From Paraspadella gotoi (taxonomy: Eukaryota > Animalia > Chaetognatha): a DNA stretch of 63,968 nucleotides. Each line of letters begins with the position of its first letter. Position 1 is the first letter of the stretch. Of this stretch, positions 3,774-63,359 are shown one piece after another. The notes below the pieces were generated by a model that saw only the letters and a list, made by a program, of their open reading frames with translations, ran no database searches and was not told where the DNA came from. A program made the position numbers and the translations under genes. Where the stretch lies: the NCBI GenBank assembly GCA_051294375.1, contig CM119270.1:3157436-3221403 (forward strand). Direction: 5' to 3'.

Positions 3774-6700
3774 TCAATAAGTATATCCCAGCTTAGCATT
3801 CTCGGCGGGTTTGGCCGTGCTCAACCTGAGCCGGGACATGCCCAAATTTCTCGACGCTCCCAATTCCTTGGAAGAACCCAGTTCCTTGGACAAACCCAAT
3901 TCCTTGGCCACGTCTCTCTCAAACTCGGATCCCCCGGACGACATGTTGTCCACGTCCGAGGGTTCCCACGACGTCGTCGGCGTCTCCACGTTTCTCGACG
4001 GCGCCCGACCGGAAGACGGCGCCGGCGTTCGTTGCTGGCGCGGCGTCGGAGACGACGATGGTGAAGAAGAAAATTGACGAGGAGGAAGGGATTTTTTGAG
4101 AGAAAGATTGAGAGGTGGAAGCGGCGCCACCGCGGGAAGGACGGCGTCATTTTTCGGCGTCGATTTCGATCCGGAACTTTCGTTGGAGGATTGACGCTTC
4201 ATGACGGGGGAACGCGTCGACGGCTGCGGGACGGGAATGGAGAGCGGAGTAGTACGTGGCGCCGGGGAAACTTTGCCCGGCGCCGTCGATTTAGAAGAGA
4301 TGGAATCGGCGCTCATCTCCGAGTCGACGCTTTTGTCGCCGACCTTTTCGGCGTCGTCTAAAACGCTTCCTTTGTTATCGGCGGCGGGGCGGACTTTGTT
4401 ATCGGCCGTACCGCCGTTCTCGCTGTCAGCCGCATCGTCGTGAGACGAAAAATCCATGGAATAAGAGTCGCTGACGTCGTCGTCGCTCTTACGCGTCGAA
4501 GACTTTCGTCTCGTAGCGGCGTCCTTCTCGCCGACGTCAACCTTCTCCGGCGAAATCGACGTCGGTTGAACGGAGGTTCCCGCCGTGAGGCCGGAAATCG
4601 GCAATCTCACTCCCGGCGACTTTTTAACCGTGGGATACGAAGTCCCGTCGGCGGAAGAAGCCGACGACTCTTTGGAATCTTTCTTGCTGTTTTCCCTCGA
4701 CGGAACCTTGAGGCGATCGGGCAGAGCGGGCGTCTCGAGGGCCGAACGTTTGGAAGTGGCCGACGAGACCTTGGAAGATTTGGACCGTTTGGAATCTTCG
4801 GAAATGGTTTTGGATTTAGCGATGGAAGAGGAAGAAGACGACGAAGGGGAAGATTTTGTTGATCCTCGCTCATTTTTCTTTCTTTCCATTTCTTCTTTCT
4901 TCTCTCTCGTTTTTCTTTCTTCGATTTTGGATTTTTCCATCTTCTTTCCATCGTCTTCTCTCGACGATTCTTTATTCTCTCTTCCGTCTCTTCTCTCCTT
5001 CTTTCTCGAATTCTCTTCATCTTTCAAATTTTCTTTCGAATCTCGCGACTTGAAATCCGATGATTCCGTTTTCCCTTTATCGCCGAGTCTGGCCAACACG
5101 TTGTGCTTCTTTTTTCCGGCGGGCGACGCCGATCTCGAGGACGCGGCGTCGACCGGCGTCGATTGACGCAGATTGGGAACGATGCCCGTCCACGAATCCC
5201 GAGTCGGCGACGGGGACGACGCCGTTCGAACGGCGGCGATTGGCGCCGACACCGACGCCGAAGGTTGGGGCGGAGCCTTTTCGACGAACTCGGCCTCGTC
5301 TTCCTCGATCGACGCCCTCATCGAACGACGCCGGAGAAACGACATCGAGACTCGACGCCGATCTGGCGAAGGCGAGGAGGACGACGCCACCGAGACCGAG
5401 CGTCGCGTCGGCGCCGCCCACTCTTCGTCCGAAGTCCAACCGGGTCGGCTGGGAGGCCAAACCGCGGTGTCGCTTGGGGGACGATCTTGAAAACGGTGGG
5501 CGGATAAACGGAGAGAATCCTGAAATAAATCAATCAATCACTCAAGGAATCAATTAAAATCAAGCTATCCATGTCCCGACATCCATTCATTCCAATCAAC
5601 CAATAAATTCAACTTTTTTCAACTAAATAAATGCAATCTCACTTTCGACGAGCCTGTGTAGAGAAACGGAGACTGCTTCTCCGGCAACATCTGCTCGAAG
5701 GGCGGCTCGGGCGTCACCAGCGGCTGCGATGGCATCCGGCGCAGCCGTACGTGCATGACGCCGCGTTTCTCAACGATATCGTCGGCGTCGACGGCGCCCG
5801 GGTTGTGCTTAGCCATTCGCAGCTTGTGCGTATTTGTCGAGCCAGCGGAGCGACTCGGGGCGGCGACTTTACTGCGAAAGGACGGAGTAGAACGAATGTA
5901 GCTCTTCGCTTTGGGAAGAGGCCGACCGCGAGCGCCGTCTCTGGGATCGTCGAGTTTGCTGCATTGACGCTTGAAGGATTTGGCGGCGAAATCCGATGGT
6001 GCCGCATCTTTTTTCGAAGGAGGTTCTAAGCGGCCTGATTCCGGGGTGAGCGCGACGTCCACGGCGTCCCCGGCGCCGCCGATGTCCCCGGCGTCACCGG
6101 CGCCCCTTTCTACCGGCCGCGATTCGCTTCTTTCGCCGCCTTTTCTAGATTCCGTCTGCGTGGCGGCGTCGTTGATTTCCGCGGCGACGGCTCTCGATCT
6201 CGATTTGACTCGATTCTTCATCGGATTTTGCGGACTCGTCTCCGCGTCGATGAACCGCAGCAGCTCCCGCAGAAGGGACTGCAGCACCGGGAAATTCTTG
6301 GGCTTCCGCAGCGATTCTAAGACTAATTCGGCGGGAGGAAGAGAGAGCGCATCGCGTTTCTTCTCCACGACGGCGTCGCCGCCTTCGAGGCTGCGTCGAT
6401 CGATAACGCGCCTCTCGTCCGACACCACCCGGCGAGGAGACGAGTGGAAGGCGTCGTTCTGACTGTTGTAGTAAAGCACAGGAGGGTTGACTAGATGAAG
6501 CGGCTCGTCGAAATCGACTTCGGGTCGAACGGCGGCCATCGTTATCGGAGCGAACGGGTAGGAGACAGTCGGGAGTCGGCGATCCAATTCCGTTTGCACG
6601 CCACGACACGTCGCGCGATTCGTTGAATTTCCATGGGCGAAATCGCGGCGACGATCGGACGCCAATTTGGTCGGTCGTTCCGTCGACGGCGCAGTTTGGA

Positions 6701-7987
6701 CGCCGGCGTCGCGTCGATCTTCGATCTTTTGTTTTTCTTCGATCTTTACTTTTGTTGTTTTTTTAATCGAAGACGAAACTAAGTTTTCTCCTCGTCGATC
6801 TTGATCGGATCTCGAGAGAGGATTCTCTTTCTCCCGACGAGCAGAGGATTCTCTCGAAGACCCGCGCTTCGTCTCGGCCGAGTCAATTCCCTTTTCTCCG
6901 AAGACGTCTCCGTCTTTCTCTCTCTCGTTGTTGTTGTTGACGTGTTCCAGCAACAATCGACCGGCTTTTCCGTAGAAGACGATCTTAGCGTCGAGACGAA
7001 CGACGCCGACGACGCCGCCCATTGGATCCACCACCTGGCAGTCGGCTTCGACGCCGCGCGACGCCGCCAAAGCCTCGTCGCCGGCGCCGTCGATCTCCTT
7101 CTTCAGTTCTCCCACGACGTCGTCGAGTCTGAGGATTCCGGTGCCTAGAAGCGAGCGGCGTCGGGCGTCATCGGGCAACGCCTCCTTGACGACGACGACG
7201 AGCGGCGCCGAGGAGAGGGCGTCGACGAGCGATTCCAAGTGTGATTCAAAGAGGAGGGACTTTCCGCGGGAGAAGATGTAGCGGACGGAGGCGGAAGGAT
7301 CGTCGGGATTGAGGACGTCAAACTGGGGAGAAAGACTTTACTTTTCAATAAAATTAAACATTACTGCAAATCCGAAGCAATTGACGAGAAAATACTTACA
7401 CGTCGGCGAAAGAATGAGAGAGAGAGGGGGAAAGAGAGAGAGAGAAAGAGAGAGAAAGAGAGAGAGAACTGAAAAGAACTGAAATGAAAAGAAAAAGAAC
7501 GCGAAAGACTTATTTTTGGAATGTCTGCGTTTGGTGTACTTCAAAGTCAGTCACGAACCGGCTTCCCACGCAAACAACATAACCAAACCTCGCTAACCTT
7601 TAAGAATTTTACTTCTAAAATATCTCAAGCGACCAGAAATCACACGAACACGTCGGACAGAAAATATCCCCATAACCGCTCTCCATCATTCAATTTAACC
7701 TTAACCAATGTATCCCTGACGGCTTCGTCGACGTTATGCCGGAAGAGGTCGACATCGTGAGCGAAAGCGAGGACCTCGGCGTCGACTCCGCGCCGCAGCA
7801 GCCGCAGGAGGTCATCGTCGACGCAGCAGAGGCTGATGCGAGGGAAATCGAGGACCTTGAGATCGATTTGGGGAACGAAGGTGGCGAGACAGTTGGATGT
7901 TTTGGTGAAGGAGTGGACGAAGAGTTCGAGGGAGAAGAGGGATGAGGAGGAGGAGGAGTTGGGGTTGGTCGGTCCTCCGATGGACAT
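3774..7987 (-). CDS. MAP10: Microtubule-associated protein 10 (KIAA1383)-like, about 3 exons
   Basis: N-terminal LFSLELFV, KVLDFPRI and FSRGKSLLF match MAP10 LFSLELLV/RLLDFPTL/FGRGKSCLF; also NPPVLYYN, FPVLQSLLRELL and C-terminal LGYTY. Exons ~7700-7987, ~5645-7322 and 3774-5519 join in frame. Confidence 0.75.
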
Positions 7988-9152: not shown

Positions 9153-10160
9153 CTAAAAACTCTCCTCGCTGTCCCTGAGTCGTTCTCTCGCCAAAAGGCG
9201 GAACCGCTCGACGACTTGTTCGAGCGACTTCTCCCCGTGGACTTTGTTGTCGCGCGTGCGAATGTTGACGGTTCCGTTGTCGCGTTCCTTTTCGCCCACG
9301 ACGAGGATGAAGTTGTACTGAGCCAATTGGTTGTTGCGGATCTTCTTGTTCAAGGTCGTGCCTAAGTTTTTTTTGGAGGAAGGAATGGCAAATGAGTCTC
9401 GGGGAGAGAGGGAAAGAGAAAAAGAGGGAAAGAGAGAAAGAGAGAGAGAGAAATTGAGGAGGAGGAAGAGAGAGAGAGAGAGAGAGAGATTCACCATGAT
9501 CCAAATCCGCGTCGACGACAAATCCCGCTTCCCTCAATTTATCCTTGACACTGAGAGCGTACGAGTCGAAAGGCGGCGCCACGGGTACGATCGCCGCCTG
9601 GGAGGAAAAACAAAATGGCGTCAAAATATTAACTAAAAATATTTTATTCGTTCAAATACGTTAATCCTCCCCCCCCCCCGAGTTTTCACACCAACCAAAA
9701 TAAACTCAAATTCTTATTATTGATAATAAAACGCACTGTCGGGCGAGAGCCAAAACGGCCATTTCCCGCCGGTGTGCTCTGTCAAGATGCCCAACATCCT
9801 CTCGACGGAACCGAGGATGGCGCGATGCACGATGACGGGCCGCTTTCGGACGCCCTCGCCGGACTCCAACGTCTCGCCGCTTAATCAATAAATTAATACT
9901 TAAATAAATAGATATAAATTTTATTATAGATTCATGGAAACCCACGTGTTGTAGGTTAGATTGAATCTTTCGGGAAGTTGAAAGTCCAACTGGATGGTGG
10001 CGCATTGAATGGATCGACGGAGCGCGTCCTTGATGGTGATGTCGATCTTGGGTCCGTAAAAGGCGCCGTCGCCAGGGTTGAGTTCCACTTGCGCCGGGCA
10101 TTTCGTCGAGGCATTCCGATAGCTGAGGGGGGTGGATTGAATGATTGAATGAGAGTGAGT

Positions 10161-10231
<71 letters not shown>

Positions 10232-12924
10232 GAAACCTGCTTTTTCGGCGTTGTCCCACGTTTCCACTTCGCCAAGGAACTTCTCCGGTCGAGTCGAGAG
10301 CTTAAGTTCGAAGGTAAAACCGAAAATTCCGTAAACGAAACTCATGAAGTCGAGGCAACCTCTGATTTCCGCCTGATGAGAAATACATAAGTAAATAAGT
10401 GATAAATAATGTTAAATAAAGAAGTTTTGAGAATTAATCGTTTTTTTTTTTAAGCGATTAACCCCTCTTCCCCCCGCCCTGAAAAAAGACCTTGATGTCC
10501 TCTTGCCGACAGAATATGTGGGCGTCGTCCTGCTGGAACCGGCGCACCCTTGTCAGCCCCGTCAGCGCCCCGCTGATCTCGTTGCGATGGAGAACTCCGA
10601 AATCGGCCAAGCGGAGAGGGAGCTCCCGCCAGGAGCGCGGCCGGTGATCGAACATGAGACAGTGGCCGGGACAGTTCATGGGCTTCATGGCGAAGGTCTG
10701 CTTCTCGATCTCGGTCGCGAACATGTTCTCCGAGTAGTGCTGGAGAAGTTGGAGAGTGTCGTCGATTAAAATTAGTTTTTTTAAGATTCGCAAAGAGTGA
10801 AAATGTATACCATATCATCATCGGTTTGTAATTTTTAAACTCCACCTGCCAATGTCCGGATATTTCCCACAGTTTAGTGTTATAGATATTGGGGGAGATG
10901 ACTTCTTGAAACCCTCTCTTCCAGTATTGCTCTTTGATGAAATCCACAAGACGATTGAAGATTATGGTTCCTTTGGGTTGGAAGAAACAGCTGCCTGGAC
11001 TCAGATCGTGAAAGAAGAACAACTCTTGATCCTGAAAAGGACAAAATATCCTGTTTAAGTGCGACGGCAATATCTAATGAGATTAAAGGACGCCTCTTTT
11101 ACCCTTCCAATTTTCCGGTGGTCTCTCTTTGCAGCTTCCTCCTGAAATTGTTTCCATTCTTTCATGAGTTTCGTGTCCGGAAAGGAGATGGCGTAGATGC
11201 GTTGCAAAGACTCCATGTCCGCTTTGCCTTCCCAGTACGAAGAAGAGTTTTTCGTCACCTTTAAAATATTCGTTAAGGGTGTTTACGAAAAAAAAAAATA
11301 TTTGAGAAAATAACTGACCGACTGACCTGGAACGCCTTGACTTTCCCAGTGTTACGGATGTGTGGGCCGCGGCAGAGATCGATGAGCGGACCGCAGCGGT
11401 AAACCGTGGTCGAATCGGTCTGAACCTTCTCGTTGATGATTCGCTGCTTGAAAGGGTTGTGCTTGAAGAGATCGAGCAAGTCTTTCTTAGAGAGCACGCA
11501 ACGTTCGAAAGGCTGCTTCTCCTTCAAGATTCCCTTCACCGTGTCCTCGATGGCTTTGAAGTCGTTGCTCGAGACTTGTCTGATTTAGGAAAAGTTGGAG
11601 AAGGGGGAGTCATCAACTCTCACTACCATTGATGCAGTGATTCTCAATGGAGACGTTTCTTCACCTTTCGTCCATAAACATGTCGTAATAAAAGCCACCC
11701 TCTACCGGTGGGCCGGCGCAGAGGTGGCCCCCGTATAACCTGAAGAGAAGGAAAAGACGGAAAAGGGATTTAATGGCCGCAAAATCTATTATAAGAACTA
11801 AATTTAATGCATACTTTCGCCGCTTTCTCACCGTTCCATCGCTTGGCCAAGAATGTGGGCGGAGGAATGCCAGAATACGTGGTTCCCGTCTTCCGAGTCG
11901 AACTTAAGAAGTTCCAAGGTGCAAGAGTCTTCCAGCGGTCGGTCCAGGTCCCACAAAGTTGCGCCGTTCAGTTTCGCAACGACGACGTTGTCGGCGAGAC
12001 CCTGACTGAACGGCAATGGTTTCTTGCATTAATACGTTACCTTTTTAAGACAATTTCTCACTCGCGATAAACACAACGCCCTTACCTAATTCCCTGAGCG
12101 ATTTGGTAAGGCGTGGTGCGCCAGGATTCACCCTGGACGACCTTTCCGTCGGGCAGAGTGACGGTGATCGGCGAGGGAGATTTCTTGCTCAACTCTTCCC
12201 TCTGTCGGGACATGAACTTCTCCCACATGTCGACTCGGTAGGGAAGGAATTCGGGCGGCGGATCGAGCAGCTTCACCGTCTCTTCCGTCTCCGCCTTTTT
12301 GGGCTTCTTCGCCGTCTTGTCTGGTTTCGCGGCGGAGGAATGTTTTTGCTGAAAAGAATATGAAACGAAATAATTTTATAGAATATATATATATCTGCTT
12401 AGTTTAAAATTATTTTCATTGCGATTTTTCGTGGCTGAAGAGCAAATCCTTGTAAAGTTACCCCGCTCTCGCTCANNNNNNNNNNAATAATTTTATAGAA
12501 TATATATATCTGCTTAGTTTAAATTTATTTTCATTGCGATTTTTCGTGGCTGAAGAGAAAATCCTTGTAAAGTCACCCCGCTCTCGCTCACTCAACAACA
12601 GATCGAGACAAAAGCAGCCCTAATTGCCTCCACTGCATCCCGCCCCCTTTTCCTTACCTGCAGCCTCGCGAGGCCAAACTTTTCCACGTAGACATTAACA
12701 TCGACGTCTGCCGCCGGAAATTTTTGTCTCTCGGCACCGAAGGATCGGATGTGATCGACCCATCGCCGGACGTTGGGAAAGGCCGTCTCGTCGAGGGCGA
12801 GTTTCTCGAGCGACGACGCCAACAGTCGCTCCACCAGTTGAGCGTCGACGGTCGTCGGCCGGAAGTCGGCCACGTAACTCCGGTCGGCCAAATGTTCGTT
12901 CAAAGCCGACAAATCGGCGGACAT
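9153..12924 (-). CDS. TARS1: Cytosolic threonyl-tRNA synthetase with putative N-terminal eEF1B-type GST-like domain
   Basis: TGS region ([16 protein letters not shown]), [65 protein letters not shown] and anticodon-binding [24 protein letters not shown]. Short GT-AG introns; apparent 1-nt indels at ~9740 and ~10085-10245. Confidence 0.95.
12366..12590. other. Assembly gap (10 N) flanked by near-identical ~105-bp duplicates, probably unmerged haplotype overlap
   Basis: aataattttatagaatatatat...ccccgctctcgctca occurs on both sides of the Ns with a few substitutions. Confidence 0.8.
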
Positions 12925-13736
12925 GGTCAAAGGCGAGATTTTTTTTTTTTTCGAAAAGGTTTTTAAATTATTGTCGGCAAATTAGGTTACTTTTGTTTTC
13001 AATGGGTAGAGATCTCTTTGAAGGAAAAAGCTTAATGGGACGGTCGGGGGGGTTGCAGATTAGGAAACATACACACAAAAAAATTAAAAATAACACCAAT
13101 AAAAAACAGTAAAACAACAGCGTTGATGAGGGTCAGCTTTAAAAACTAAAAAAACAAATGAGTAAAAAATATAGAACTGTTTAGGAACAGTTGTGGGGTT
13201 TAGAGAATTCAAAATAAACTTCACAACTATGTCATATATCCACGTTAACTACCTCTACCTTTGGATGTTGAAGTTAAGTGAAAAAATAAAGAAAAGTTAG
13301 CACAACTAAGTCTTTCAGAGGAGTTTTTGAGGAAGAACGTCATATAAATAACAAATAATATAAATAAAATAATTATTAGGAAACGATTAATCGTGATGAG
13401 TCTAAAACCTCGTCCTCAAATTACTCATAGTAAAGTCTGCTGGGGAAGACAACGCCGATCCAGTGGCCAATCGATTTCGCCGATTTCTATCCGACTTTTA
13501 ATTGACCAACGCTCAACCAAGGCTCACCATTAAAAAGAACAGCATAAGGAATGGTAGGAATCTTCGGACAAATCTATTGACCACTGAATCGGAAAAGTGT
13601 TTTCCATACTGCCTCAGCCCAAGTTCTCTTGAACACACTTTTCAAATTGATGATTCATGATTTTGTTTCTTCTGTTGCTACTCTATCATTAGCTAAGTCT
13701 TGGTTAACTGTTTTATCATCACGGATAAAGAATCCT

Positions 13737-16588
13737 TCAATCTTTCTTAATTCCTTCATTCACTGGTAGAGCAACAGCAGCATCTTGAACAGGGATGGTA
13801 TCAGCTGCCGCTTCCGATTCCGCCGGCATTGCGACCTCCGCCTCTTCTTGTTCATCTTCAGGACCATTTTCAATCAAGGCGGATCGATCCGGGTTGGCGT
13901 TCGCCGCGCCGCCGTTCCCATTACGGTCGCCGTCCTCCTCCGAATCACTGCTTTCGAAAAAGCGAAGGTCTCCTCGTGGTCGTTGATTCGAGACTATCTC
14001 GCCGTTCGTCACCAAGTCTTCGTAATGCTTGGAACTGGCATTGAAGGCCGCCTTGACTGTTCTGTAGTTGAAGGAGCGCGGATAGTCCAACATATCGAGC
14101 TTCCAAAGGGTCTTCAAGTCGCCCGCTATCGCAGCCGTAACGGTCGTGGTCAAAAACATTATCGGAACGATATACAGAAGAGCGGGTTGAGCAGAGCTCA
14201 TCGTCCTAAATTAAAAATAGAAAAAAAAGCTGAAAACGCCATGTCAAGACGACAAAGGCTTTGAATATGCTAGGTTGGACTATCGCTTACCAGAGACTAA
14301 TGATTGTTATTACGAGCGAGAAAGGGTAAGATAAAATCGTCGTCATTATATAGGTTTTGGGCTTGTTGACAACGTGTCCAACTAAGATCATGTAAGATCC
14401 TGTAAAACGCAGCCAATGAAAATAAGGTTTAAAGTTAATTAGTAAATACAGCAAAATTTTGCAGAAACGCCAATGTACCGAAAATGGCGGGGACGACGAC
14501 GTCGCCGAAACCGAGTAGACCGGCCATCTCCCGCTGGCCGCAAATGTTGCCGGTGGAAGGAAAGATGGCGGGGATCTTGAAGACGAAGGGCATGTCGTCG
14601 CCTTCGATTCCCCTCGCCACCGACTCCATCACGCTCTGCCCTTTGGTGATGAAAGGCGTCACGAAGACCATGAACACGTCGTAGACGAGCAGCATCGCGC
14701 ACGCGTACACGCAGGTGCGGAACCGCGTGATTCTCACGTCGTTGCACACGTGATAAACGAGGGAGAAACCGAGAAAGTTGTGCAGCGTCAGGATGACGAT
14801 CTTGTCGTGTCGATAAACGTACCAAGCGAATCCGATCAACAAAAACACGGCGCAGGCGACGAAGTGATGCAAGGGGCAAGAGCATCCGCAGCATTTACGA
14901 ACGCAGTTGTAGGGGCAGTAGGAGGTGAGGCGGACGCGGTGGGCGCACCAGCCCAGGCGATTCAGCAGCGGCCCGAAGAGAGTCAAGAGAGAAAGAGAGG
15001 AAAGGGCGAAGAGGACGAGAAAAATGGGAATGGCGATGGATTTGAAAAAGTAGATGAGAATGAGGAAAGAGGAGAGGATAGCGAAGACGAAGATGACGCC
15101 GAATATCTCGTAACGGGAATAGCGGCGCGGCTCCGCCACTTCCTCCACCTCTTCCTCGTCGGGCGAGTCCGTCCAATCCTCCAAGTTGCGCAAGGCTTGG
15201 CGGCGACGGAGGTAGCGGCGGACGGCGTGATCGAGGCGGTAAGCGTAGCTCTTTTGGTAGGCGGAGTAGGTGGCGAGTCCGCTGACGGTCGAAAATGGAA
15301 ACCAAGTTTCTTTTACAATATTATTTTTCATTTAAATTAAGGCGACTTGTTGAAAAAAATCATTCTTCAAAATATTTAAAGAAAATCCATATTTAATTAG
15401 ATTTCACAAAAAAATTTTTTTTTGCATGAGGCAAAGCAAAAAACAGGCTGACGCAACCAGTAGCAAATATTTGAAGACTTTGAAGATTTATCGAATTGGC
15501 CGCGCAAGACGATATGATTATTGCGAAATGCCAAAACCAACACTCTGACCCACCTGTTATAGGCCGCGGCCCACATGGAAACTGTGGCGATGAGCAACAA
15601 AGTGGCCCAGTTAACGATGTCCTCAAGAACGCCGAACCTGCGAATCCACGAGACCAGCGTGACGTTGGGGCCAACGAAGAGGTTGAGTGCTGACGCGGAG
15701 ATCTCAACGCTGGCGACGTCGATGTCATAGACTGACGAGAGGTTGGAGGGAGGCAGGTCGGTGTAGCCTGAACATAAAAATATACAAAGTAGTGTGGCGA
15801 ATACTAAATTCACCTCCCGTATAGTTTGGTGAAACTCAGCTTGTCCCATTGGCTTGGACAGCTAAGTACATCCAGCTGTCGGGAGATGCCTCACACCCCG
15901 GGCATCACACATGTGTCCCCGTTGCCATAGTAGCTAATTTATTCGTAAAATTTAAAATGAGATTGAATCTAAATCTCATTTGTGCGTAAATAATTTCAGT
16001 TTCACTTTGGCTTTGTTTTTTAACTTCCACCCATGAAAATTATTTAGCAAGAGTCCAACCTCTCCCCCTACCTTGGCAAAGATCTTCCAATTCGGGCAAC
16101 GTCTCCACCTTCGTCGCGTTCTCCTCCACGACCCAAATGAAGCCGACGGCGCCGTTCGACGACACCACCGCCGCTTTGGTCGGATATTCGCAGCATCGCG
16201 GACACAGCGTCGTGTTTCCGTCCGTCCAGCACCGCGCCGTCTGGACGACGAACTTGTTAGTCAAGTTTCCTTCCGGCGCCGGAAATGGTTGGAGAGTCTC
16301 GGCATCGACGCATCCGGCTCTGATGTCGGAGACGATCGCGACGTCGCGGAATTCTTTTTGGCTTGGCAGAGTCGTAGGGAGGTCGAGGGCGAGCCGGAAT
16401 CTGATTGTACGAGACGGCGACTCGCCGGCGGAAGAGTTGAGCCTGAAATCTTGGACGCCGGTGGCGCAGATGTTCACGGCGTCGGTGAGGTCGGCTTTTG
16501 TGGAAGAGGTCAGATAGTTGAAGTAGGTGGTGGCGTCGCAGAGGCCCGACCAAGAGGCGATGATCGCGACGAATATGATGATCGACAT
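13737..16588 (-). CDS. SPPL2: Signal peptide peptidase-like 2 family GxGD aspartyl intramembrane protease
   Basis: Signal peptide (MSIIIFVAIIASWSGLCDA), PA-like luminal domain, catalytic YD (VYDVFMVFVTP), GFGD (LLGFGDVVVP) and QPALLYIVP motifs; five exons join in frame. Confidence 0.9.
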
Positions 16589-16942
16589 CGTCTTCTTGGG
16601 TTTTAAGTTTGAAGAGGCTTTTCCTAACGTCTGCTTATCATTTCAGGTTTAATTTTAATTTTCGTTGACTTAAAATTAAGACAAAAATGAAAATAAGCGG
16701 AAAAAATTTGGTATTAAAAAGCAAATAATTTATTTTATATTTATGAAGATTTTAGTTTTAAATTGCGTACTGAGAGAAACTGCGCAACAAGTTGGCTTCG
16801 AAACGTTAACTGGAAAATCGTCAATACTTCCGACATCGCAAAATAAACCTGGAATTATACTCCGACATAAAAAAAATACAAAATAACTAAATCATAGCTG
16901 GAATGGGTGGTTTTTGATGGGGTTTTAAGTCTGTTTCTGTTT

Positions 16943-19084: not shown

Positions 19085-20154
19085 TTAATCAAGAAGTGCA
19101 CTGAGGAGGCTCATGAATATATCGGGAGACTGACGTCCCAAGAGAATCCATCCTCTGGTCTTTTTCACGGCCGAAGCGTTCGCCTTCATGAATGAAGCGC
19201 ATTTCTCGGTCAACAACTGGCAATTGAACAAAACTGATTTGAGGTAACACATGCAGACGTTGTCTATCCCGATCAACGGTTCCATTCTAGAGGCGCAATC
19301 CTCCACCAACGCCGAAAGACCGTACTCGTGAGCTTTGGGGAGCACGTCGGGAGCCAAGACCGCATTCTGGTCCGTCAACAAACACCCACCGTAGAGGAAA
19401 TATAGAATGACCTTGAAAGCTTCGGCGCTAACGTCGCCAATGGGTACGTTGCTCGATTTCGTTTCCATCATGGCCGAGCGAAACATGAGCTCGAAATAAG
19501 GACACCTCGCGGTTAAAATGGCACGATGAGCGGGGATCTTTTCTTCCTCAACGAGAAACCAGACGTCGGCCATGGCGCCAGATTGGAGGAGCCTCAATAA
19601 ATCTAATTCGATGGGAGGGGGAGAGTTCTTCGGCTTTGGCTTTGGAATAACTGGATCTTCAATTTCGATCTCGAATCGATAGGCCGACTCCAGATTAAGA
19701 TCGGGAACTGAAATAGTTGTCTTCCCTTCGTCGCAAGAGCAGTCGATGAAATCTGTAGAATCCTCCATGTCATAAGCCCAACAGGTGGATCTTTTGAATT
19801 TGAAAGGAATAAAAACTTCGCAGGTTCCTTTCAAGTATTGACCTCGGCGAAAATAATGACGAGCGTCGTCATAATTTTGCGGAAAAATATCAATTTTGAC
19901 GTTACCCAGAAAGGTGTGTAATTCCACAGAGTGCGCTTCGATAAAAATTTGGGTAAATATCGAAAGGTTTAAAAAAAGCGACTTCGTTAGAAAGAGAGCG
20001 AGAGAGCGAAAAAGTACGTGAAAAAATGGTAGAAACTTTTACAATTCTCCGCCGAAAGAATCCTAAATCCGTTCGATAATTACCAATTATACTTACTGTA
20101 GTCACGCCAATGACGGTAGCATGGAACGAGATAATCCAAAACATAAACGGTCAT
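19085..20154 (-). CDS. BTB/POZ-domain protein (SPOP/TDPOZ-like), 2 exons
   Basis: ADVWFLVEEEKIPAHRAILTARCPYFELMF..VSAEAFKVILYFLYGG BTB signature plus BACK-like tail. Exon 1 MTVYVLDYLVPCYRHWRDY ends at A|GTAAGT and joins at gaag|CG in frame. Confidence 0.85.
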
Positions 20155-20334
20155 TTTAGTTTCCGTTGTTTTTAATCAATAATCTGAAGGTAAAAAAAAG
20201 CTAAAATAAGTCAGGGGTAAGATAGCTTTTTATATTGGTTGTACCCATTTCATAAGAAAACTAAAATAAATTTTGTAATATTATTTTCGATAAAAGTAAT
20301 CAAATAAATTCTGTAGTTAGTATACGTCCCACAA

Positions 20335-21794
20335 TCACAGGTTATAGGCTCGGGTATCAACGACGTTCAGAAACGTCAAAACGAAAAATTGTAAAATGAA
20401 GAAGAGAAAATTAATCCACATCAGATACAACAAAATTTCTTCGGCGTGGTCGGTCAAACAAGTTAAATCTTTAGAGGCCAACTCCTTGACGTTATCGGTC
20501 AAGTCTTCTTTCCACCAATCTTTGGTGAAGAAGCTTCCGTTTTTCGAGAGATTCTCGTAGACGCAATCCGCCCAAAGGGGAGACGATGAATTGCGGAGGG
20601 ACGTTTCCGCCATCCACGTCGTCTTCTCTTCGAATTGCGCTCGCTTCCACTCGGACATGGGCCAAGGAGGATCCGGCCAAACAAAGGCGGGCACCGACGC
20701 CTCCGCCTTTGCCTCCTCCCCAGCAAACGTCTTCACGCGAATGAACCACATCTGCGCGAGTAGGATCACCGCGCCCGTCATCAAGCAATGCAGCGCCAAA
20801 GAGGGCACGCCCACCAATATTCGGTTGGCGCGAGTCCTATTTCTCTTGCCCAGGTGCAAGGGTAGCGCCGTCAGCGCCATCTGTAAGTAGAGCAAGAGAC
20901 CCAAAACCAAAGCGCCGCCGTGAGTGACGGCTCCGAAAAAGGCGACGGCGGGCAGATGGGCCAGGAGTGCCAAGAGGCACCAAAAGGCGGCGCCGATGGC
21001 CAGCGCCGGGCGAAAGACGTTGGAGCAGTCGAAGAGATGGCGCCGCATGGGCGTGGAGACGACGTCGTCGAGTGCGTAGACGACGGTGAGAACGGCGCCG
21101 ATCGTCGACGTCGAGAGAGTGAAGAACTGGAGGCCGCCAAGGGCGTTCTGCTTGGCGGCGATGTAGAGTTGAAGACCGATTTGAGGGATGGCTTCGAGAG
21201 TCACCTCGATAGCTCTGAAATTAAAATAAATTACTAAACAAATAAAATTAATTTGCTTTTCGAATTTAGAGTTCGAAATACAGATTATGTAAAAAAAAAA
21301 AATGACAAGTAAATAAATCTATCTAATAATATAGTAATAATCTAGTAATATGTATGTAATCATGGACGAACTCCCATAAAGAAAACACTAACAAACCTTT
21401 GCCGACTTCCAATGCTTCCTACGGCTCCGGCGCCTTCCCCCTCGTACACCTCTCCCCCTGGCGCTTGCCACACGTCCCAACGCAGCTGCACCTTGGCCAG
21501 GCGCCTCATGATCCGCTCCAGACTCGAAACCAGCGGCGCCGCCAGGACAGAACACAAGAACAGCGCCACGTAACGAAAGGCGCCGACGAAGAAACGGCGC
21601 GCGAAAATGGCGCCAATGACGGAGTTAACGACGCCAGGGATGAGGAAGAAGGCGAGGGTGGCGGCGCCCCAATTGGGGTGGCCGAGTTTAAGCCAGAGAA
21701 CGCCGAGGGCAAGGTCTGAGTAAACGTCGAGCGAGTAAGTGATGAGGCCGAATAAGTTGGAGACGATCACGCAGACGGTGAACAGCCCCGACAT
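20335..21794 (-). CDS. XK-related (XKR) membrane protein / putative scramblase, 2 exons
   Basis: YSLDVYSDLALGV..W.AATLAFFLIPG N-terminal motif and EVTLEAIPQIGLQLYI (XK ExxPQxxLQ) motif; phase-2 GT-AG intron ~21215-21396. Confidence 0.8.
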
Positions 21795-22031
21795 TTCCCT
21801 TTTTTTAAAGTTTTAATGAGCAAGTTTAAAAGAGGAGCTATGAGCTCCGAGATTCAGTTATCACAGACATTGCTGCACTTAGTAAAGTATATATACATGT
21901 ATATTTATTCGAGTATGTGAATCTCGACATTTTGTGCTTTATGTTGATCTACATGGTAGATACTTTACACTACATTTTCATGTAGTTTCCTGCAAAATTA
22001 ACAATTTTAGTAACGGTCAATGAATTAAATA

Positions 22032-23404: not shown

Positions 23405-24520
23405 TCAAGAGTTTGATTTTGTTTTCTTTTTTCCCTCAACCATCTCTTTATTCTTCTTCTTCTTTTTCTTCTTCCCTTCTCCCTTTTTCTTCTTGACCGA
23501 CAAAGGGTTGGGGCCTTTGGCTTTCTTCTTCTTAACCCTCCTCAACGGATCTTCCTTGACGAGCCCTTCCCTCTTCTTCATCGCCTGTACGATCTTCAAT
23601 TCCGGATCCACCACGCCCAACGCCTCCTTGGTGGTCGCCTCCGCCGCCAACGCCACAGACTTGGCCGTCGGCTTCTCCAGCACCATCGTCGTCCCGTGGA
23701 AGAAGACGATAGGAACGCCGGCGATTCGGCGCGCCATCTCCGTCAGTTCGGGATCGACGGTGGAGAGGATGAACTTGCCGGGATTGCCCTGAAATTTGGA
23801 GATGTAAAAAATTTAAAAGGATCGGAATAAGAAACTGGGGGAAGGGGGCCTCGAGAAGGGGAAAATAAATTTATTATGAAAATCAGTTATTCGTTCAATA
23901 AACAACCTCTATTGCCCGTGACTTTGGACTGGCTATGGTTGGTTAAGGTGTCCAACCCGCTTAAAAGATAGTAACATAGGAAAACCCTGTAGACTTTCAA
24001 TCGAGACACACCACACTAGTTTTTGACTGCCCTATCAATGACATATGTTTTTCTCTCGTTTCATTTGGATAAAAGTGAAATTTTGAAATCTTTATAACCT
24101 TTTTCAAAATGCTGAGCAAACAGTGGGGAGCGGAAATAGGCTCGACGTGGCCGCAGGGTTTGACGGTAAACTGCCTCAGTACGCAGAGGTCTCCGTAAAC
24201 TGGCGTTCCAAGCATTTCCAGTTCCGCCACGCAACAGGCGGTGGTGAGGATCTGAAAGGTGTCGTCGGCGTCGTCACCGGCGTTCTTGGCCCCTGGAAGA
24301 TGTCGCGAGTTATTGTCACCGGGTTCCCGAGTTACCGTCTGACCTGTGCCAGCGGCGCCGCCCAAGTACTTTGGCAGTTCGTTGCGGATATTGACCTTGA
24401 CCTTAGAGCGGCGTGGCAAAACGTCCCGTCCACCAAAATCCGATACGGCGACGAGATTCCATAATTGTTTTTGTAAAAGTTTAAAATCTTTTTGGCGTTT
24501 CGAATTCGCTTGACTTTCAT
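23405..24520 (-). CDS. UTP23: rRNA-processing protein UTP23 (PIN domain), 2 exons, one apparent frameshift
   Basis: MKVKRIRNAKKILNFYKNNYG..PYRILVDGTFCHAAL, TTACCVAELEMLG, CGH..SAPHCL, GVPIVF and KAKGPNPLSVKKKK. The frame shifts at ~24400 (CTAAGG where CTAAAG is expected). Confidence 0.9.
23910..24005 (-). repeat. Short (~120 bp) interspersed repeat family, copy in UTP23 intron
   Basis: tgactttggactggctatggttggttaagg is the reverse complement of the ccttaaccaaccatagcc..tccaaagtca core seen at ~29655-29690 and ~41584-41615. Confidence 0.65.
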
Positions 24521-25410
24521 TGTTGGACTAAAAGTAAAATGAAACTCACTAAGTTTTGCATTCGCAACTACGTAACATTCCACAGAATAAAAATGAGATT
24601 AGGGGCAGAGAGGAAAAAAGTTTAAATTTAAGGAAGCAACACGAGACAAGCGAGACAAGCTTCACGATCAATCCGTTTCCTGCGATGAAAGCCATTGGAA
24701 AAAAAAAAATCGAAACTGAGCCCCATACGTGACGACTGACGAGCCTTGTGATGTGGGCCTTCCATGGCCGCGGTAAACTATTCGTCCTAACAGTCAATGG
24801 ACAAAGGATTTGAGAAAACGGAACCAAGGCGATGAGGGTCACGTGATCAAATCGTTCATTGGGTCAACCGTAGACGGGAGTCGAGATTCTCGTGTGAAGA
24901 GGAAAGAGATTGCGTGGGTGACCGTTAAGAGCAGAGGAGCCGGAAATTTAGTAATAAAAAATCTAATTACCATGACCCGAACGGCAAAAGAATGGGGGCT
25001 CAACAAAGAACTTGCCCTGAAACAGTTATCAGTATTAAATAGCTTCAATTGTATAAAGTTTTCGTCTTCTGTCAATACCGGGTTGCATTTTTTTTTTCCG
25101 ATGTCCGAACACTTTACAAGAAATACTCAAACCGACCATTTCTTTCATTTTCTTCAATAGCTATCACCAACTTAAAAAATCTACGAAATATCTTTCCTAA
25201 CTAATGTAAAAGAGAAAGAAAAAGTCCAAGAGGAAAATAAATAAATAACAAAAGAAAAAATATTTCAATTCAATGACAGAAAAATAAAAACACAGCAAGG
25301 CACTCTGGTTGTAAATGTAAAAAGCTCGTTTAAAAAAATGCAACAAAAATAAATCACTGATGGTCATCAAATAGGCATTTCATTCAAGCCATACATGCTT
25401 TAAGAAGGAT

Positions 25411-58303: not shown

Positions 58304-60559
58304 GAGTCTCTGCGTCTCTGCGTTGATAAATGCAAAATATATGAGGAATGGCTTCCCTCCGTGTCACCAGATGAAACCACAATATTTTTTCTTTCCAGAT
58401 TTTTTTCAAGAGTATTCATTTTTTAATAAATATAATTTTCTGAAGAGAAATTTCAAAGTTCGCTTTTAATTTAAATGAAATATTTTCCCGGGGATCTTTT
58501 TTTTAAAAACGCTTTTTTTTATTTAAAGAGGTACCTAATTATATTTTTTTTAGTATATATTCACTAATTTTTATTCAATCTGATTCCACCTAAAAATAAC
58601 TTTGACGTTGCAGTCGCGATTAATTAATTAAAAATAAAAACTACTAATATTTATTAAAATGATTAGTGATTACGTTTTAAAGCTACTGCTTTTCAATTAA
58701 ATTTTAAAAGGATTACACCAAAAACAATAGGCCAGCGATTAATTGTTAAACGCTCACATTACAAACCGGAAAAAGCTTCGAGATTAATCTAAGATTAGAT
58801 TCTCGAGCAGTGAGTTCGTGTGAATGTGATTTCTTTTTTCAAAGACGACGATGAAAGAGTTCTGTAAATGGAAACCTCTGCTGCTCTGCCAAAAAAAAAA
58901 AAAGGAAAAAAAAATCTTTGGGATGAAAAAAAGTTTTCTTCCCACTTTGATCATGGTTAAAAAACAATCTTAACAATGTTTTTTTTCCTCGCGAGTGTGA
59001 GTGGGTGTTGTAGATCGGATAACTGTTCTCATTTCTGTTTTCTCCGCGAAATATCAACTTAGCTTCAATTAAGAATTATGATTAAATTATTGCCAAAGAC
59101 TGATAAAATCTAAATACTACTTGCGAGGGACTCGTCAACCAACATGGCGGACAAAAAATCCGATCAACTTAAACTTTAAGGTAAAGGAAAATCTTTATCT
59201 TTTCTCGTTCATGATCGTTTGAAATCGCAGGCTATATTATCCTTTTATTAGACAGTTTGAAAATTCTTTCTTTTTCGTTGTGTTTAGGAATAAATGAGAT
59301 TAAAGACGTCTTTTTACATCAACGTTTTTTTTTGTTTTTTTTTAACAGACAAGTTTCTGCTGTAAAAAGACTTCGTTTTTAATCTCATTTATCATTTTAA
59401 TTTGATTTTATTTAATATTCTCGTATGGACTTCGTTGGTTTATTATTACATAATATTATTTAAAGTAAAAAAAAATCCATTCAGTTTTTAAACATTATGA
59501 TTAAAATTAAAATCTGTTTCGACGGAACAATTTTTAATTTTTTAGTTGTTACGGAAATCGGACTAATTCTCCAAAAAACCGAGATATTTCGCGGGCCATA
59601 TCCTTGCAGTTTAAACTGTNNNNNNNNNNNNNNNNNNNNNNNNNNNNNNNNNNNNNNNNNNNNNNNNNNNNNNNNNNNNNNNNNNNNNNNNNNNNNNNNN
59701 NNNNNNNNNNNNNNNNNNNNNNNNNNNNNNNNNNNNNNNNNNNNNNNNNNNNNNNNNNNNNNNNNNNNNNNNNNNNNNNNNNNNNNNNNNNNNNNNNNNN
59801 NNNNNNNNNNNNNNNNNNNNNNNNNNNNNNNNNNNNNNNNNNNNNNNNNNNNNNNNNNNNNNNNNNNNNNNNNNNNNNNNNNNNNNNNNNNNNNNNNNNN
59901 NNNNNNNNNNNNNNNNNNNNNNNNNNNNNNNNNNNNNNNNNNNNNNNNNNNNNNNNNNNNNNNNNNNNNNNNNNNNNNNNNNNNNNNNNNNNNNNNNNNN
60001 NNNNNNNNNNNNNNNNNNNNNNNNNNNNNNNNNNNNNNNNNNNNNNNNNNNNNNNNNNNNNNNNNNNNNNNNNNNNNNNNNNNNNNNNNNNNNNNNNNNN
60101 NNNNNNNNNNNNNNNNNNNNNNNNNNNNNNNNNNNNNNNNNNNNNNNNNNNNNNNNNNNNNNNNNNNNNNNNNNNNNNNNNNNNNNNNNNNNNNNNNNNN
60201 NNNNNNNNNNNNNNNNNNNNNNNNNNNNNNNNNNNNNNNNNNNNNNNNNNNNNNNNNNNNNNNNNNNNNNNNNNNNNNNNNNNNNNNNNNNNNNNNNNNN
60301 NNNNNNNNNNNNNNNNNNNNNNNNNNNNNNNNNNNNNNNNNNNNNNNNNNNNNNNNNNNNNNNNNNNNNNNNNNNNNNNNNNNNNNNNNTAAACCTTTCG
60401 CGCAGTTTCGGGAAAGAGAACTATAAGTTCACCGCAACTACGCCCTGCGGCGGTCTTCGCCGGGGATTTTATTCCCGGCATATCCCCCGCCCAATTCTTG
60501 ACGGGACAAGACAATGGGCCACTTATCTATCTCTCTCTGTCTCTCTCTCTATCTCTCTG

Positions 60560-61141: not shown

Positions 61142-62006
61142 CTAAAGCGTGTTTTCATTTTATGGAGAGTAAAGAAAGAATTTGGAAGGAGGTGAGTGTG
61201 TGCGTGTGAGAGAGAGAGAGAGAGAGAGAGAGANNNNNNNNNNNNNNNNNNNNNNNNNNNNNNNNNNNNNNNNNNNNNNNNNNNNNNNNNNNNNNNNNNN
61301 NNNNNNNNNNNNNNNNNNNNNNNNNNNNNNNNNNNNNNNNNNNNNNNNNNNNNNNNNNNNNNNNNNNNNNNNNNNNNNNNNNNNNNNNNNNNNNNNNNNN
61401 NNNNNNNNNNNNNNNNNNNNNNNNNNNNNNNNNNNNNNNNNNNNNNNNNNNNNNNNNNNNNNNNNNNNNNNNNNNNNNNNNNNNNNNNNNNNNNNNNNNN
61501 NNNNNNNNNNNNNNNGAGCATAAAAAGAAAAAGATTCAAAGTAACTTCTTTTCTTTCGCTCTTTTACGACAAAATCGACAACGACGACGACAACGACGAT
61601 GACGACGACGACGACGTGAGAACGACGGTAAAGGCGACGATAGCGACGCCTATAAAAAGACGAACACGAAGAAGACGAAGAGATCGAGACAAAAATGGCG
61701 GAATTATTGACTTTTGTCGAAGATGTACGATTTGATTAAATGACAACAACTTTTAACTGTTAAACATTTAATTGGTCTTCGTTTCAAATTAAATTAGTCT
61801 ATGATGAGAAAGAAAAAAAGCACGTGTTCAATCGACGACTGAAGAGAGATGGAAAACGTGATATGACATGACATGACATGAAAGAGAAAGAGCTGATGAC
61901 GATGATGACGACGACGACAACGTCGAACGAAACGACGACAAAATTGATCAAGAGGCGAAAATGGCGAAAATTCGACGACGACGACGACGACGACCAAGAA
62001 GAAGAA

Positions 62007-62778: not shown

Positions 62779-63359
62779 NNNNNNNNNNNNNNNNNNNNNN
62801 NNNNNNNNNNNNNNNNNNNNNNNNNNNNNNNNNNNNNNNNNNNNNNNNNNNNNNNNNNNNNNNNNNNNNNNNNNNNNNNNNNNNNNNNNNNNNNNNNNNN
62901 NNNNNNNNNNNNNNNNNNNNNNNNNNNNNNNNNNNNNNNNNNNNNNNNNNNNNNNNNNNNNNNNNNNNNNNNNNNNNNNNNNNNNNNNNNNNNNNNNNNN
63001 NNNNNNNNNNNNNNNNNNNNNNNNNNNNNNNNNNNNNNNNTCTCTCTCTCTCTCTTTCTCTCCTCCTCAATCACTCTTTCTACCTTATCCATATTACTTT
63101 TTGAATTGATTTAATATTAATTTATTGAATAAATAGCAACCATTTTGTTCTGGCTTAAAGATTCAATCGCTCTCAACATCAAATAATAACATTTAAATAT
63201 AAAATTAATTAGCATATTTTTATCAATGTTTATTTCGTTTTATTAATGCACTTATTTTCTACAAATTTAAATTTAAATAATTTATATCTATTTAAAATTT
63301 TTTTTATGAAATTGGTACAACCAATATAAAAATTATCCATTCATTTAATAAATAAGCTA

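What the first reader, a model, noticed from the sequence alone, without database searches (positions are those of the whole stretch)
12085..12924. Threonyl-tRNA synthetase apparently fused to an eEF1B-type GST-like N-terminal domain
Seen: exon 12658-12924 ([44 protein letters not shown]) resembles the GST-C-like N-terminus of eEF1B-alpha/beta. It ends CAG|GTAAGG and splices in phase 0 to tttcag|CAAAAA ([34 protein letters not shown]), in frame with the ThrRS TGS domain. No separate ATG precedes the conserved ThrRS start and no eEF1B GEF domain follows. Known: GST-like appendages typify EPRS, MARS, VARS, CARS and AIMP2/3, not TARS1. Inference: ThrRS may be recruited to the eEF1 or multisynthetase complex in this lineage. 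Caveat: a 10-N gap lies in the joining intron.
Basis: partly seen in the sequence, partly recalled or inferred. Interest (0 to 1): 0.7.

Follow-up and report, generated by a model that had tools for sequence, protein, structure and literature searches.

The report
ThrRS carrying an eEF1B-type docking domain
The gene for the enzyme that loads threonine onto tRNA is spliced to a first exon encoding a small domain resembling the docking end of translation elongation factor 1B-alpha, a layout also present in insect, crustacean and sea-squirt gene models, which likely lets the enzyme dock on the elongation machinery.

Summary
The fusion is real. A 3,082-nt spliced contig from public run X1 joins exon 12658-12924 to the ThrRS exon at 12348. 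The 10-N gap lies between two near-identical copies of one ~105-bp stretch, so it is most likely an assembly artefact. The 89-aa exon passes Pfam GST_C and Arc1p_N_like. Its model (pLDDT 93.5) best matches the human eEF1B-alpha N-terminal domain, 5DQS_D (Z 9.3, next 6.3).

It is not peculiar to this lineage. The same domain heads ThrRS records of 18 named species (insects, decapods, a copepod, an ostracod, Ciona) and of unnamed close relatives; in decapod RefSeq models it is one of several alternative N-termini. Ten literature searches listed no paper reporting it. This scan noted the same layout earlier in another genome (e1-7833105).

Likely mechanism, untested: the domain lacks the helices for classical GST dimers but keeps the helix-7 arginine (R54, 25 of 25 relatives). 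It would dock cytosolic ThrRS on eEF1B-gamma, as reported for a human CysRS splice form. Verdict: new variant of a known kind; interest 0.5.

The parts
12925..13035 (-). 5' untranslated part of exon 1 (approximate; end of the transcript contig)
   Evidence: X1 contig piece 12658-13035, record positions 5-382
12658..12924 (-). Coding part of exon 1, 89 aa: eEF1B-alpha-type, thioredoxin-less GST-C-like helical domain (residues 1-82 align to 5DQS_D)
   Evidence: Pfam GST_C and Arc1p_N_like above cut-off; best PDB sequence hit 5dqs_D, E 6.7e-5; model pLDDT 93.5; VIA-align Z 9.3, rmsd 2.7, 75 aligned
12844..12855 (-). N-capping box T24-x-x-D27 of the GST-C fold
   Evidence: S/T and D in 25 of 25 ThrRS-fused, 10 of 10 eEF1B-type and 10 of 10 other rows; motif defined in PMC9136112 (passages)
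12763..12765 (-). Codon for R54, aligned to human eEF1B-alpha R54 in the eEF1B-gamma contact helix C50-I59; inferred helix-7 'interface 2' arginine
   Evidence: Alignment to 5dqs_D; invariant in 25 of 25, 10 of 10 and 10 of 10 rows; contact helix from PMC9458455 Discussion
12349..12657 (-). Intron 1, phase 0, GT-AG; holds a false 10-N gap (12476-12485) between two copies of one ~105-bp stretch
   Evidence: alignment of the flanks; joint 12348-12658 in X1
12086..12348 (-). Exon 2: lysine-rich linker, conserved pre-TGS helix and start of TGS domain
   Evidence: covered by X1 contig; 18 ThrRS hits
10491..12005 (-). Exons 3-8 (11832-12005, 11665-11739, 11327-11579, 11103-11258, 10846-11031, 10491-10739): rest of TGS, editing domain, start of catalytic core; motifs [40 protein letters not shown] intact
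   Evidence: GT-AG borders and open frame; joints in X1
9153..10372 (-). Exons 9-13 (about 10237-10372, 9946-10122, 9741-9879, 9495-9600, 9153-9361): rest of catalytic core and anticodon-binding domain, stop at 9153-9155. The window has single-base homopolymer discrepancies near 10241-10245, 10090, 10084 and 9741 that the transcript contig does not share
   Evidence: Translation; indels, joints and loose end in X1; coding length from contig positions 2,394 nt = 797 aa plus stop

Best explanation
[quoted passage not shown] Shown: the exon is spliced in frame to ThrRS; the domain's closest solved relative is the eEF1B-alpha N-terminus; the layout is shared by many invertebrates. Inferred: the domain has no thioredoxin half, so it cannot bind glutathione or form a classical GST dimer; its only GST-type surface is 'interface 2' around R54, the surface by which eEF1B-alpha binds eEF1B-gamma; a flexible lysine-rich linker would leave the synthetase dimer tethered rather than fixed. 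ThrRS would then use, and compete for, the eEF1B-alpha site on eEF1B-gamma. In decapods the exon is one of several alternative N-termini, so docking would be switchable there; here it is the only start seen.
For: Spliced contig across the junction. Sequence and fold both rank 5DQS_D first: E 6.7e-5 against 0.022 for AIMP3; Z 9.3 over residues 1-82 against 6.3 or less over 1-69 for GluRS, AIMP3, AIMP2, EPRS and Arc1p domains; Foldseek also ranks it first, at E 0.092. Human eEF1B-alpha contacts eEF1B-gamma by loop D21-V29 and helix C50-I59 (PMC9458455); the aligned window segments keep D14, S16, Y17 and R54, W55, H58, I59, and S16 24/25, Y/F17 25/25, R54 25/25, W55 25/25, H58 21/25 in ThrRS-fused relatives. 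EF1-beta GST-like domains are reduced to three helices and are modelled to pair with EF1-gamma through the helix-7 arginine (PMC10813123 passages). A human CysRS splice form with a GST-like insert is reported to bind eEF1-gamma (secondary statements in PMC10813123 and PMC2582632). The domain persists on ThrRS across insects, crustaceans and a tunicate.
Against: No interaction was measured or modelled with eEF1B-gamma; no such sequence was on hand. The conserved residues are also the structural core of the fold and are equally conserved in the 10 other fused or fragment rows, so they do not single out a partner. The glycine of the contact loop (human G27; G in 10 of 10 eEF1B-type and 21 of 25 ThrRS rows) is D20 here and D/E in the three nearest relatives. 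The domain is only 37% identical to that of P0095 while the core is 86% identical, which is loose for a fixed interface. GST-like pairings are reported to be highly partner-specific (PMC9136112), and a review warns that sequence does not predict complex membership well (PMC4394549). Z 9.3 is below the ~13 that the tool advises for helical bundles.
Confidence: 0.5

Rival explanations
1. The domain uses the same arginine surface to join the multisynthetase complex (or a lineage-specific one) through another GST-like partner such as AIMP3 or GluProRS, paralleling how vertebrate TARS3 is recruited by a different N-terminal extension.
For: Interface 2 links Arc1p-GluRS and AIMP3-EPRS (PMC1557820, PMC9136112). 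Those domains are the next-best folds, Z 6.0-6.3. TARS3 joins the mammalian complex by a leucine-zipper extension (PMC6794377 passages). The same module occurs on other synthetase fragments (PheRS-alpha, LeuRS, AlaRS-type), which could form a network.
Against: The domain is clearly closer to eEF1B-alpha than to any multisynthetase domain. The arthropod complexes reviewed in PMC4394549 hold the nine usual enzymes and the main text has no occurrence of 'ThrRS'. In the human complex interface 2 of AIMP3 and EPRS is already occupied by each other.
Confidence: 0.2
2. The domain has no stable partner; it serves as a folded cap that marks or stabilises the cytosolic form (for instance by replacing a mitochondrial presequence exon), or has transient regulatory partners outside translation.
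For: In decapod RefSeq models the domain alternates with a presequence-like start and a short start. The sister subclade of the window protein has presequence-like starts and no domain in 12 of 12 records. Many animal ThrRS records lack it (109 of 136 under 28 bits). The contact-loop glycine is lost in this clade.
Against: A short cytosolic start works without any cap in C. elegans (PMC10196762) and is modelled in the same decapods, so a cap is not needed. [quoted passage not shown]
Confidence: 0.2
3. The two copies of the domain on the ThrRS homodimer, or on neighbouring dimers, pair with each other through the arginine stack and so tune oligomeric state.
For: Class IIa ThrRS is a homodimer (established knowledge), so two copies are always near; P. 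vivax tRip forms an interface-2 homodimer in crystals (PMC9136112).
Against: The closest solved relative, the eEF1B-alpha N-terminus, is crystallised as a heterocomplex with eEF1B-gamma; Arc1p, which has the same arginine, is a monomer.
Confidence: 0.07
4. Artefact: exon 1 belongs to a separate eEF1B gene broken by the assembly gap, or the join is a chimera.
For: A 10-N gap lies in the intron and the assembly has homopolymer errors nearby. Only one run holds the junction.
Against: The gap flanks are duplicates; a contig of depth 313 spans the junction; an independent 814-aa protein P0095, 86% identical in the core, has the same architecture, and its exon-1 read-through P0033 diverges at the same kind of boundary; 18 named species share the layout.
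Confidence: 0.02

Closest known systems
[quoted passage not shown]
   Same: Best sequence and best fold match; thioredoxin-less helical GST-C-like unit; shared S-Y, N-capping box, R-W-x-x-H-I and the C-terminal extension to residue 82.
   Different: Here it is followed by a lysine-rich linker and ThrRS, not by the acidic region and GEF domain; 27% identity; the contact-loop Gly is Asp; 7-9 extra residues between helices 2 and 3.
Human CysRS (CARS1) splice form with an inserted elongation-factor-associating GST-like domain (Kim et al. 2000, PMID 10908348; paper not held, seen only as a title in reference lists and through statements in PMC10813123 and PMC2582632)
   Same: A synthetase gains a GST-C-like exon near its N-terminus, optionally by splicing, with reported binding to eEF1B-gamma.
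   Different: Different enzyme and class (class I CysRS against class II ThrRS); cassette second exon against first exon; vertebrate against invertebrate. I did not compare the CysRS insert sequence here.
Vertebrate ValRS (VARS1) in the eEF1H complex
   Same: N-terminal GST-like appendage that ties a synthetase to eEF1B, with proposed hand-to-hand transfer to eEF1A (PMC9458455, PMC4394549).
   Different: ValRS has a full ~213-aa eEF1B-gamma-type GST domain that binds eEF1B-beta; this domain is the 80-aa eEF1B-alpha type and would bind eEF1B-gamma.
Vertebrate TARS3/TARSL2 and TARS1 N-terminal extensions
   Same: ThrRS core with an added N-terminal interaction segment; TARS3 is thereby targeted to a translation complex (PMC6794377).
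   Different: The TARS3 extension is ArgRS-like with leucine zippers; TARS1 has an 82-aa extension; neither is described as GST-like in the passages read, and no fish ThrRS record scanned carried the domain.

Membership tests
Eukaryotic cytosolic-type ThrRS (TARS1-like) | TGS + editing (tRNA_SAD) + class II core + anticodon-binding domain in one reading frame | tested here: met
   Window exons translate through these regions; the 86%-identical P0095 has all four Pfam domains; transcript contig length gives 797 codons plus stop. The joined window protein itself was not scanned with Pfam.
Eukaryotic cytosolic-type ThrRS (TARS1-like) | Editing and zinc/catalytic motifs intact | tested here: met
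   [40 protein letters not shown] found; HRAILGS seen in the translation. Motif roles are recalled.
Eukaryotic cytosolic-type ThrRS (TARS1-like) | Aminoacylates tRNA-Thr | not testable with these tools
   Needs an assay.
eEF1B-alpha-type GST-C-like domain | Thioredoxin-less helical bundle matching eEF1B-alpha 1-90 better than other GST-like domains | tested here: met
   5dqs_D first by phmmer, Foldseek (E 0.092) and VIA-align (Z 9.3 vs 6.3); all-helical model, pLDDT 93.5.
eEF1B-alpha-type GST-C-like domain | N-capping box S/T-x-x-D and helix-7 arginine | tested here: met
   T24-x-x-D27 and R54; invariant class in 25 of 25 ThrRS-fused rows.
eEF1B-alpha-type GST-C-like domain | Conserved eEF1B-gamma contact loop (human D21-V29) | tested here: inconclusive
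   3 of 9 identical, 3 conservative, Gly replaced by Asp.
eEF1B-alpha-type GST-C-like domain | Binds eEF1B-gamma | not tested
eEF1B-alpha / eEF1B-beta subunit (whole protein) | Central acidic region and EF1_GNE exchange domain after the N-terminal domain | tested here: not met
   The transcript continues into ThrRS; no EF1_GNE or EF-1_beta_acid hit in exons 1-2.
Catalytic glutathione S-transferase | N-terminal thioredoxin domain with glutathione site plus full C-terminal domain | tested here: not met
   The exon matches only profile positions 35-90 of GST_C; the model has no strands; it starts at the first Met.
Multisynthetase-complex GST-like appendage (EPRS, MARS, AIMP2, AIMP3, Arc1p) | Helices 2 and 3 for interface 1 in addition to helix 7 for interface 2 | tested here: not met
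   The model aligns only to the C-terminal part of those domains (e.g. AIMP3 89-157, EPRS 93-163, Arc1p 40-113). Interface 2 alone remains possible.

The most novel reading that the evidence does not exclude
Probability: 0.22. Interest if true: 0.75.

Novelty: new variant of a known kind. Interest (0 to 1): 0.5.

Why it matters
The lists of GST-like synthetase appendages in the papers read here name EPRS, MetRS, ValRS, CysRS and the AIMPs, not ThrRS, and give ValRS (plus a CysRS splice form) as the synthetases tied to eEF1B. An eEF1B-alpha-type domain on ThrRS across insects, crustaceans, a tunicate and an unnamed animal clade changes that map for invertebrates. It gives a small, easily expressed module with a one-residue test (R54A) for whether synthetases can occupy the eEF1B-alpha site on eEF1B-gamma, which bears on the open question of how charged tRNA is channelled to eEF1A. 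It is an extension of a known design, already sitting unremarked in public gene models, not a new kind of system.

Tried and rejected
No whole genome is held for this window, so a separate eEF1B-alpha gene, eEF1B-gamma and a second ThrRS paralogue could not be looked for. Word-indexed search of exon 1 against longer proteins: 0 of 202 candidates passed; later searches show this was lack of sensitivity. Metagenome scan with the first 317 aa of P0001: 4 loci of 475 stretches; L001 and L002 are ordinary ThrRS starts, L004 is unrelated, L003 was not examined. ESM Atlas: best score 0.89, leads only. Runs X2 and X3 (other organisms, same study) laid nothing; no listed holder is on record as RNA. X1 shows no cover in intron 1, which cannot exclude a rare alternative first exon. 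Two-copy complex prediction of the domain: verdict 'no answer', score 0.00, alignment not used. Domain tree of 46 rows, 86 columns: unresolved; the ThrRS label needs 4 changes but starred branches force only 1, so single against repeated origin is open. P0019, top phmmer hit, is a repeat protein and was dropped before building the profile. Foldseek found no match at E <= 0.001. A short ORF in intron 1 (12638-12591, 16 codons) looked like a presequence start but ends in a stop without an in-phase donor; rejected as a first exon on present data. The organism could not be named: no named ThrRS falls in its clade. Kim et al. 2000 was not held. An earlier count said '26 of 136 at >48 bits'; the correct count is 25 of 136 at 48 bits or more plus 2 at 28-30 bits.

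Full report
Observation. On the minus strand an ATG at 12924 opens 89 codons that end at CAG|GTAAGG (12658); the next AG acceptor used is at 12348, and the phase-0 join reads into a lysine-rich linker, the conserved pre-TGS helix and the TGS domain. The 10 N at 12476-12485 sit between two copies of the same ~105-bp stretch that differ by 3 substitutions and a 2-nt indel, the pattern of two haplotypes placed in tandem, so no hidden exon is expected. A search of public runs with 10500-13700 gave one holder, X1, with 0.60 of the words. Laid on the window, one X1 contig of 3,082 nt and depth 313 begins near 13035, skips 12349-12657 and six further GT-AG introns. The upstream signal-peptide-peptidase-like gene is on a separate contig ending at 13246. 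X1 is one run, flagged as RNA by guess, and may share its source with the assembly; contigs show presence only.

The gene is intact as far as can be seen. The window's translation shifts frame near 10241-10245, 10090, 10084 and 9741, but the same contig has one added base at 10084 and at 10090, three added letters at the 9600/9741 joint, and a loose end with four A where the window has five. Contig positions give a coding length of 2,394 nt, i.e. 797 aa and a stop; I did not see the contig's full sequence, so an open frame is inferred from these lengths. Editing and catalytic motifs are present (their roles are recalled). The first Met after M1 is M130, inside the conserved helix, so exon 1 is the only start seen.

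Domain identity. Exon 1 passes Pfam Arc1p_N_like and GST_C. Its best solved relative by sequence is human eEF1B-alpha 1-90 (5dqs_D, E 6.7e-5; AIMP3 0.022). A model from a 54-row alignment has pLDDT 93.5 and only helices. Against 48,161 chains, 5dqs_D is the single match at Z >= 8 (9.3; rmsd 2.7; 75 aligned; residues 1-82), ahead of yeast GluRS, AIMP3, AIMP2 and EPRS domains at 6.0-6.3; Foldseek ranks it first too but at E 0.092. Z 9.3 is under the level the tool advises for helical bundles, so the assignment rests on sequence and fold agreeing.

Range. HMMER over 1.84 billion representatives gave 75 hits, mostly short fragments. One, P0033, clusters with P0095, an 814-aa protein with this domain followed by a complete ThrRS: 86% identical to the window protein in the core, 37% in the domain. 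P0001 and P0094 begin inside the last part of the domain and are probably 5'-truncated relatives. A search with P0095 1-245 found 1,152 proteins, of which the best 120 were listed. I built a profile from 74 of the 75 hits (P0019 dropped as a repeat; window excluded, but some seeds are themselves ThrRS first exons, so it is not fully independent) and scanned 136 ThrRS records: 25 score 48 bits or more at the N-terminus and 2 score 28-30. In 80 further cluster members, 38 carry it. These sets were ranked with a domain-bearing query, so they are not frequencies. Named carriers are Cloeon dipterum, Neocloeon triangulifer, Ephemera danica, Diploptera punctata, Schistocerca cancellata, Bacillus rossius, Homalodisca vitripennis, Nezara viridula, Penaeus indicus, P. 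japonicus, P. chinensis, Cherax quadricarinatus, Portunus trituberculatus, Scylla paramamosain, Eriocheir sinensis, Tigriopus californicus, Notodromas monacha and Ciona intestinalis. In decapods the same gene is modelled with three kinds of start: domain-bearing (796-874 aa), presequence-like by eye (about 709-722 aa; no predictor run) and short (about 691-698 aa). Records of fish, molluscs, echinoderms, chelicerates, Priapulus, Paramacrobiotus, Folsomia, a beetle and a wasp in the set lacked it; single records do not show absence in a species.

Placement. In a quick tree of 68 ThrRS cores the window protein lies in a 9-row clade (SH-aLRT 100) with no named member, split into a domain-bearing group (window, P0095, P0001, P0094; 97) and a group with presequence-like starts (5 rows; 99); 12 of 12 records of that second group lack the domain. 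Whether these are lineages or paralogues is not known. The organism is an animal by these homologies but could not be named. A tree of the domain alone is unresolved, so one old origin with losses and repeated gains both remain open.

Other synthetases. Among the 75 hits Pfam shows the module before PheRS-alpha DNA-binding domains (P0065, Plectus sambesii), inside a LeuRS between the anticodon and RagD-binding domains (P0088), after a DHHA1 domain (P0075, AlaRS-type, followed by an acidic stretch) and after a WHEP domain (P0062). P0036/P0069 and P0082/P0087 adjoin what I recall as TyrRS and SerRS ends; that was not tested. These are single fragments and were not checked against RNA.

Mechanism. 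In 5DQS eEF1B-alpha contacts eEF1B-gamma through loop D21-V29 and helix C50-I59 (PMC9458455, Discussion). EF1-beta-type domains lack the thioredoxin half and the helices of interface 1 and are modelled to bind EF1-gamma through interface 2, a stack of helix-7 arginines (PMC10813123 and PMC9136112 passages; mutational proof for Arc1p-GluRS in PMC1557820). The window keeps D14, S16, Y17, the N-capping box T24-x-x-D27 and R54, W55, H58, I59; R54, W55 and D27 are invariant in 25 of 25 ThrRS-fused, 10 of 10 eEF1B-type and 10 of 10 other rows. That R54 is the interface-2 arginine is my inference from its alignment with the only Arg of the human contact helix. I therefore favour docking on eEF1B-gamma (0.5), with hand-over of Thr-tRNA to eEF1A by analogy with ValRS and the CysRS splice form. 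Against: nothing was bound or modelled with eEF1B-gamma; the conserved residues double as fold core; the loop Gly is Asp or Glu in this clade; the domain drifts fast; and GST-like pairings are specific. Rivals: a multisynthetase partner (0.2), a partner-less cap for the cytosolic form (0.2), self-pairing (0.07), artefact (0.02).

Literature. Ten full-text searches of the held library listed no paper whose title or abstract reports a GST-like or eEF1B-like domain on ThrRS; 'ThrRS' with 'EF1B' gave one unrelated paper. I read passages of PMC6794377, PMC10452860, PMC4394549, PMC9136112, PMC10813123, PMC10196762, PMC1557820 and PMC2582632, and passages plus the Discussion of PMC9458455; the rest only as search listings. 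Kim et al. 2000 was not held. No supplements were read; domain tables in supplements, subscription journals and automatic database annotation (two records already carry Pfam PF21972) may mention the architecture.

Earlier notes of this scan report the same ThrRS layout in an arthropod-like genome (e1-7833105) and related modules on GlyRS and AlaRS; they are unchecked AI notes, seen after my reading was formed, and are not counted as support.

Verdict. Observation confirmed; interpretation partly supported. A real, expressed, widely shared invertebrate ThrRS architecture that I did not find described, built on a known design (synthetase plus GST-like docking domain). New variant of a known kind; interest 0.5.

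Noticed in passing
window 12476-12485 with 12590-12486 and 12475-12369: False scaffold gap: the two flanks are two alleles of the same intron stretch, inflating intron 1 from about 190-200 to 309 nt.
   Followed up: yes
window 10241-10245, 10090, 10084, about 9741: Four single-run (homopolymer) discrepancies make the ThrRS look frameshifted; the transcript contig does not share them. Other apparent frameshifts in this assembly deserve the same doubt.
   Followed up: yes
window 12588-12638 (-): 16-codon ORF in intron 1, Leu/Arg/Ser-rich like a mitochondrial presequence start, ending in a stop without an in-phase donor; no RNA cover in X1. How this organism makes mitochondrial ThrRS is unexplained.
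   Followed up: partly
proteins P0116-P0118, P0232-P0240: Sister group of the window protein with presequence-like starts and an internal Met, no GST-like domain; five of these full-length ORFs lie on contigs of 8-11 kb, which suggests an intronless (retroposed) copy or polycistronic transcripts. Could be a paralogue that took the mitochondrial role.
   Followed up: partly
proteins P0065, P0088, P0075, P0062 (also P0036, P0069, P0082, P0087): The same eEF1B-alpha-type module is attached to PheRS-alpha (Plectus sambesii), LeuRS, an AlaRS-type DHHA1 end and a WHEP domain by Pfam; TyrRS- and SerRS-like neighbours by recall only.
   Followed up: partly
window 13246-16650 (-): Upstream signal peptide peptidase family gene (Peptidase_A22B); its transcript ends only about 210 nt before the ThrRS transcript begins.
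   Followed up: no
window 19085-21812 (-) and 23405-24598 (-), 5619-7337 (-): Neighbouring ORFs with BTB/BACK, XK-related, Fcf1/UTP23 and MAP10_N Pfam hits; ordinary housekeeping neighbourhood of a compact animal genome.
   Followed up: no
window 59620-60389, 61234-61515, 62779-63040: Three longer N gaps in an AT-rich end of the window.
   Followed up: no
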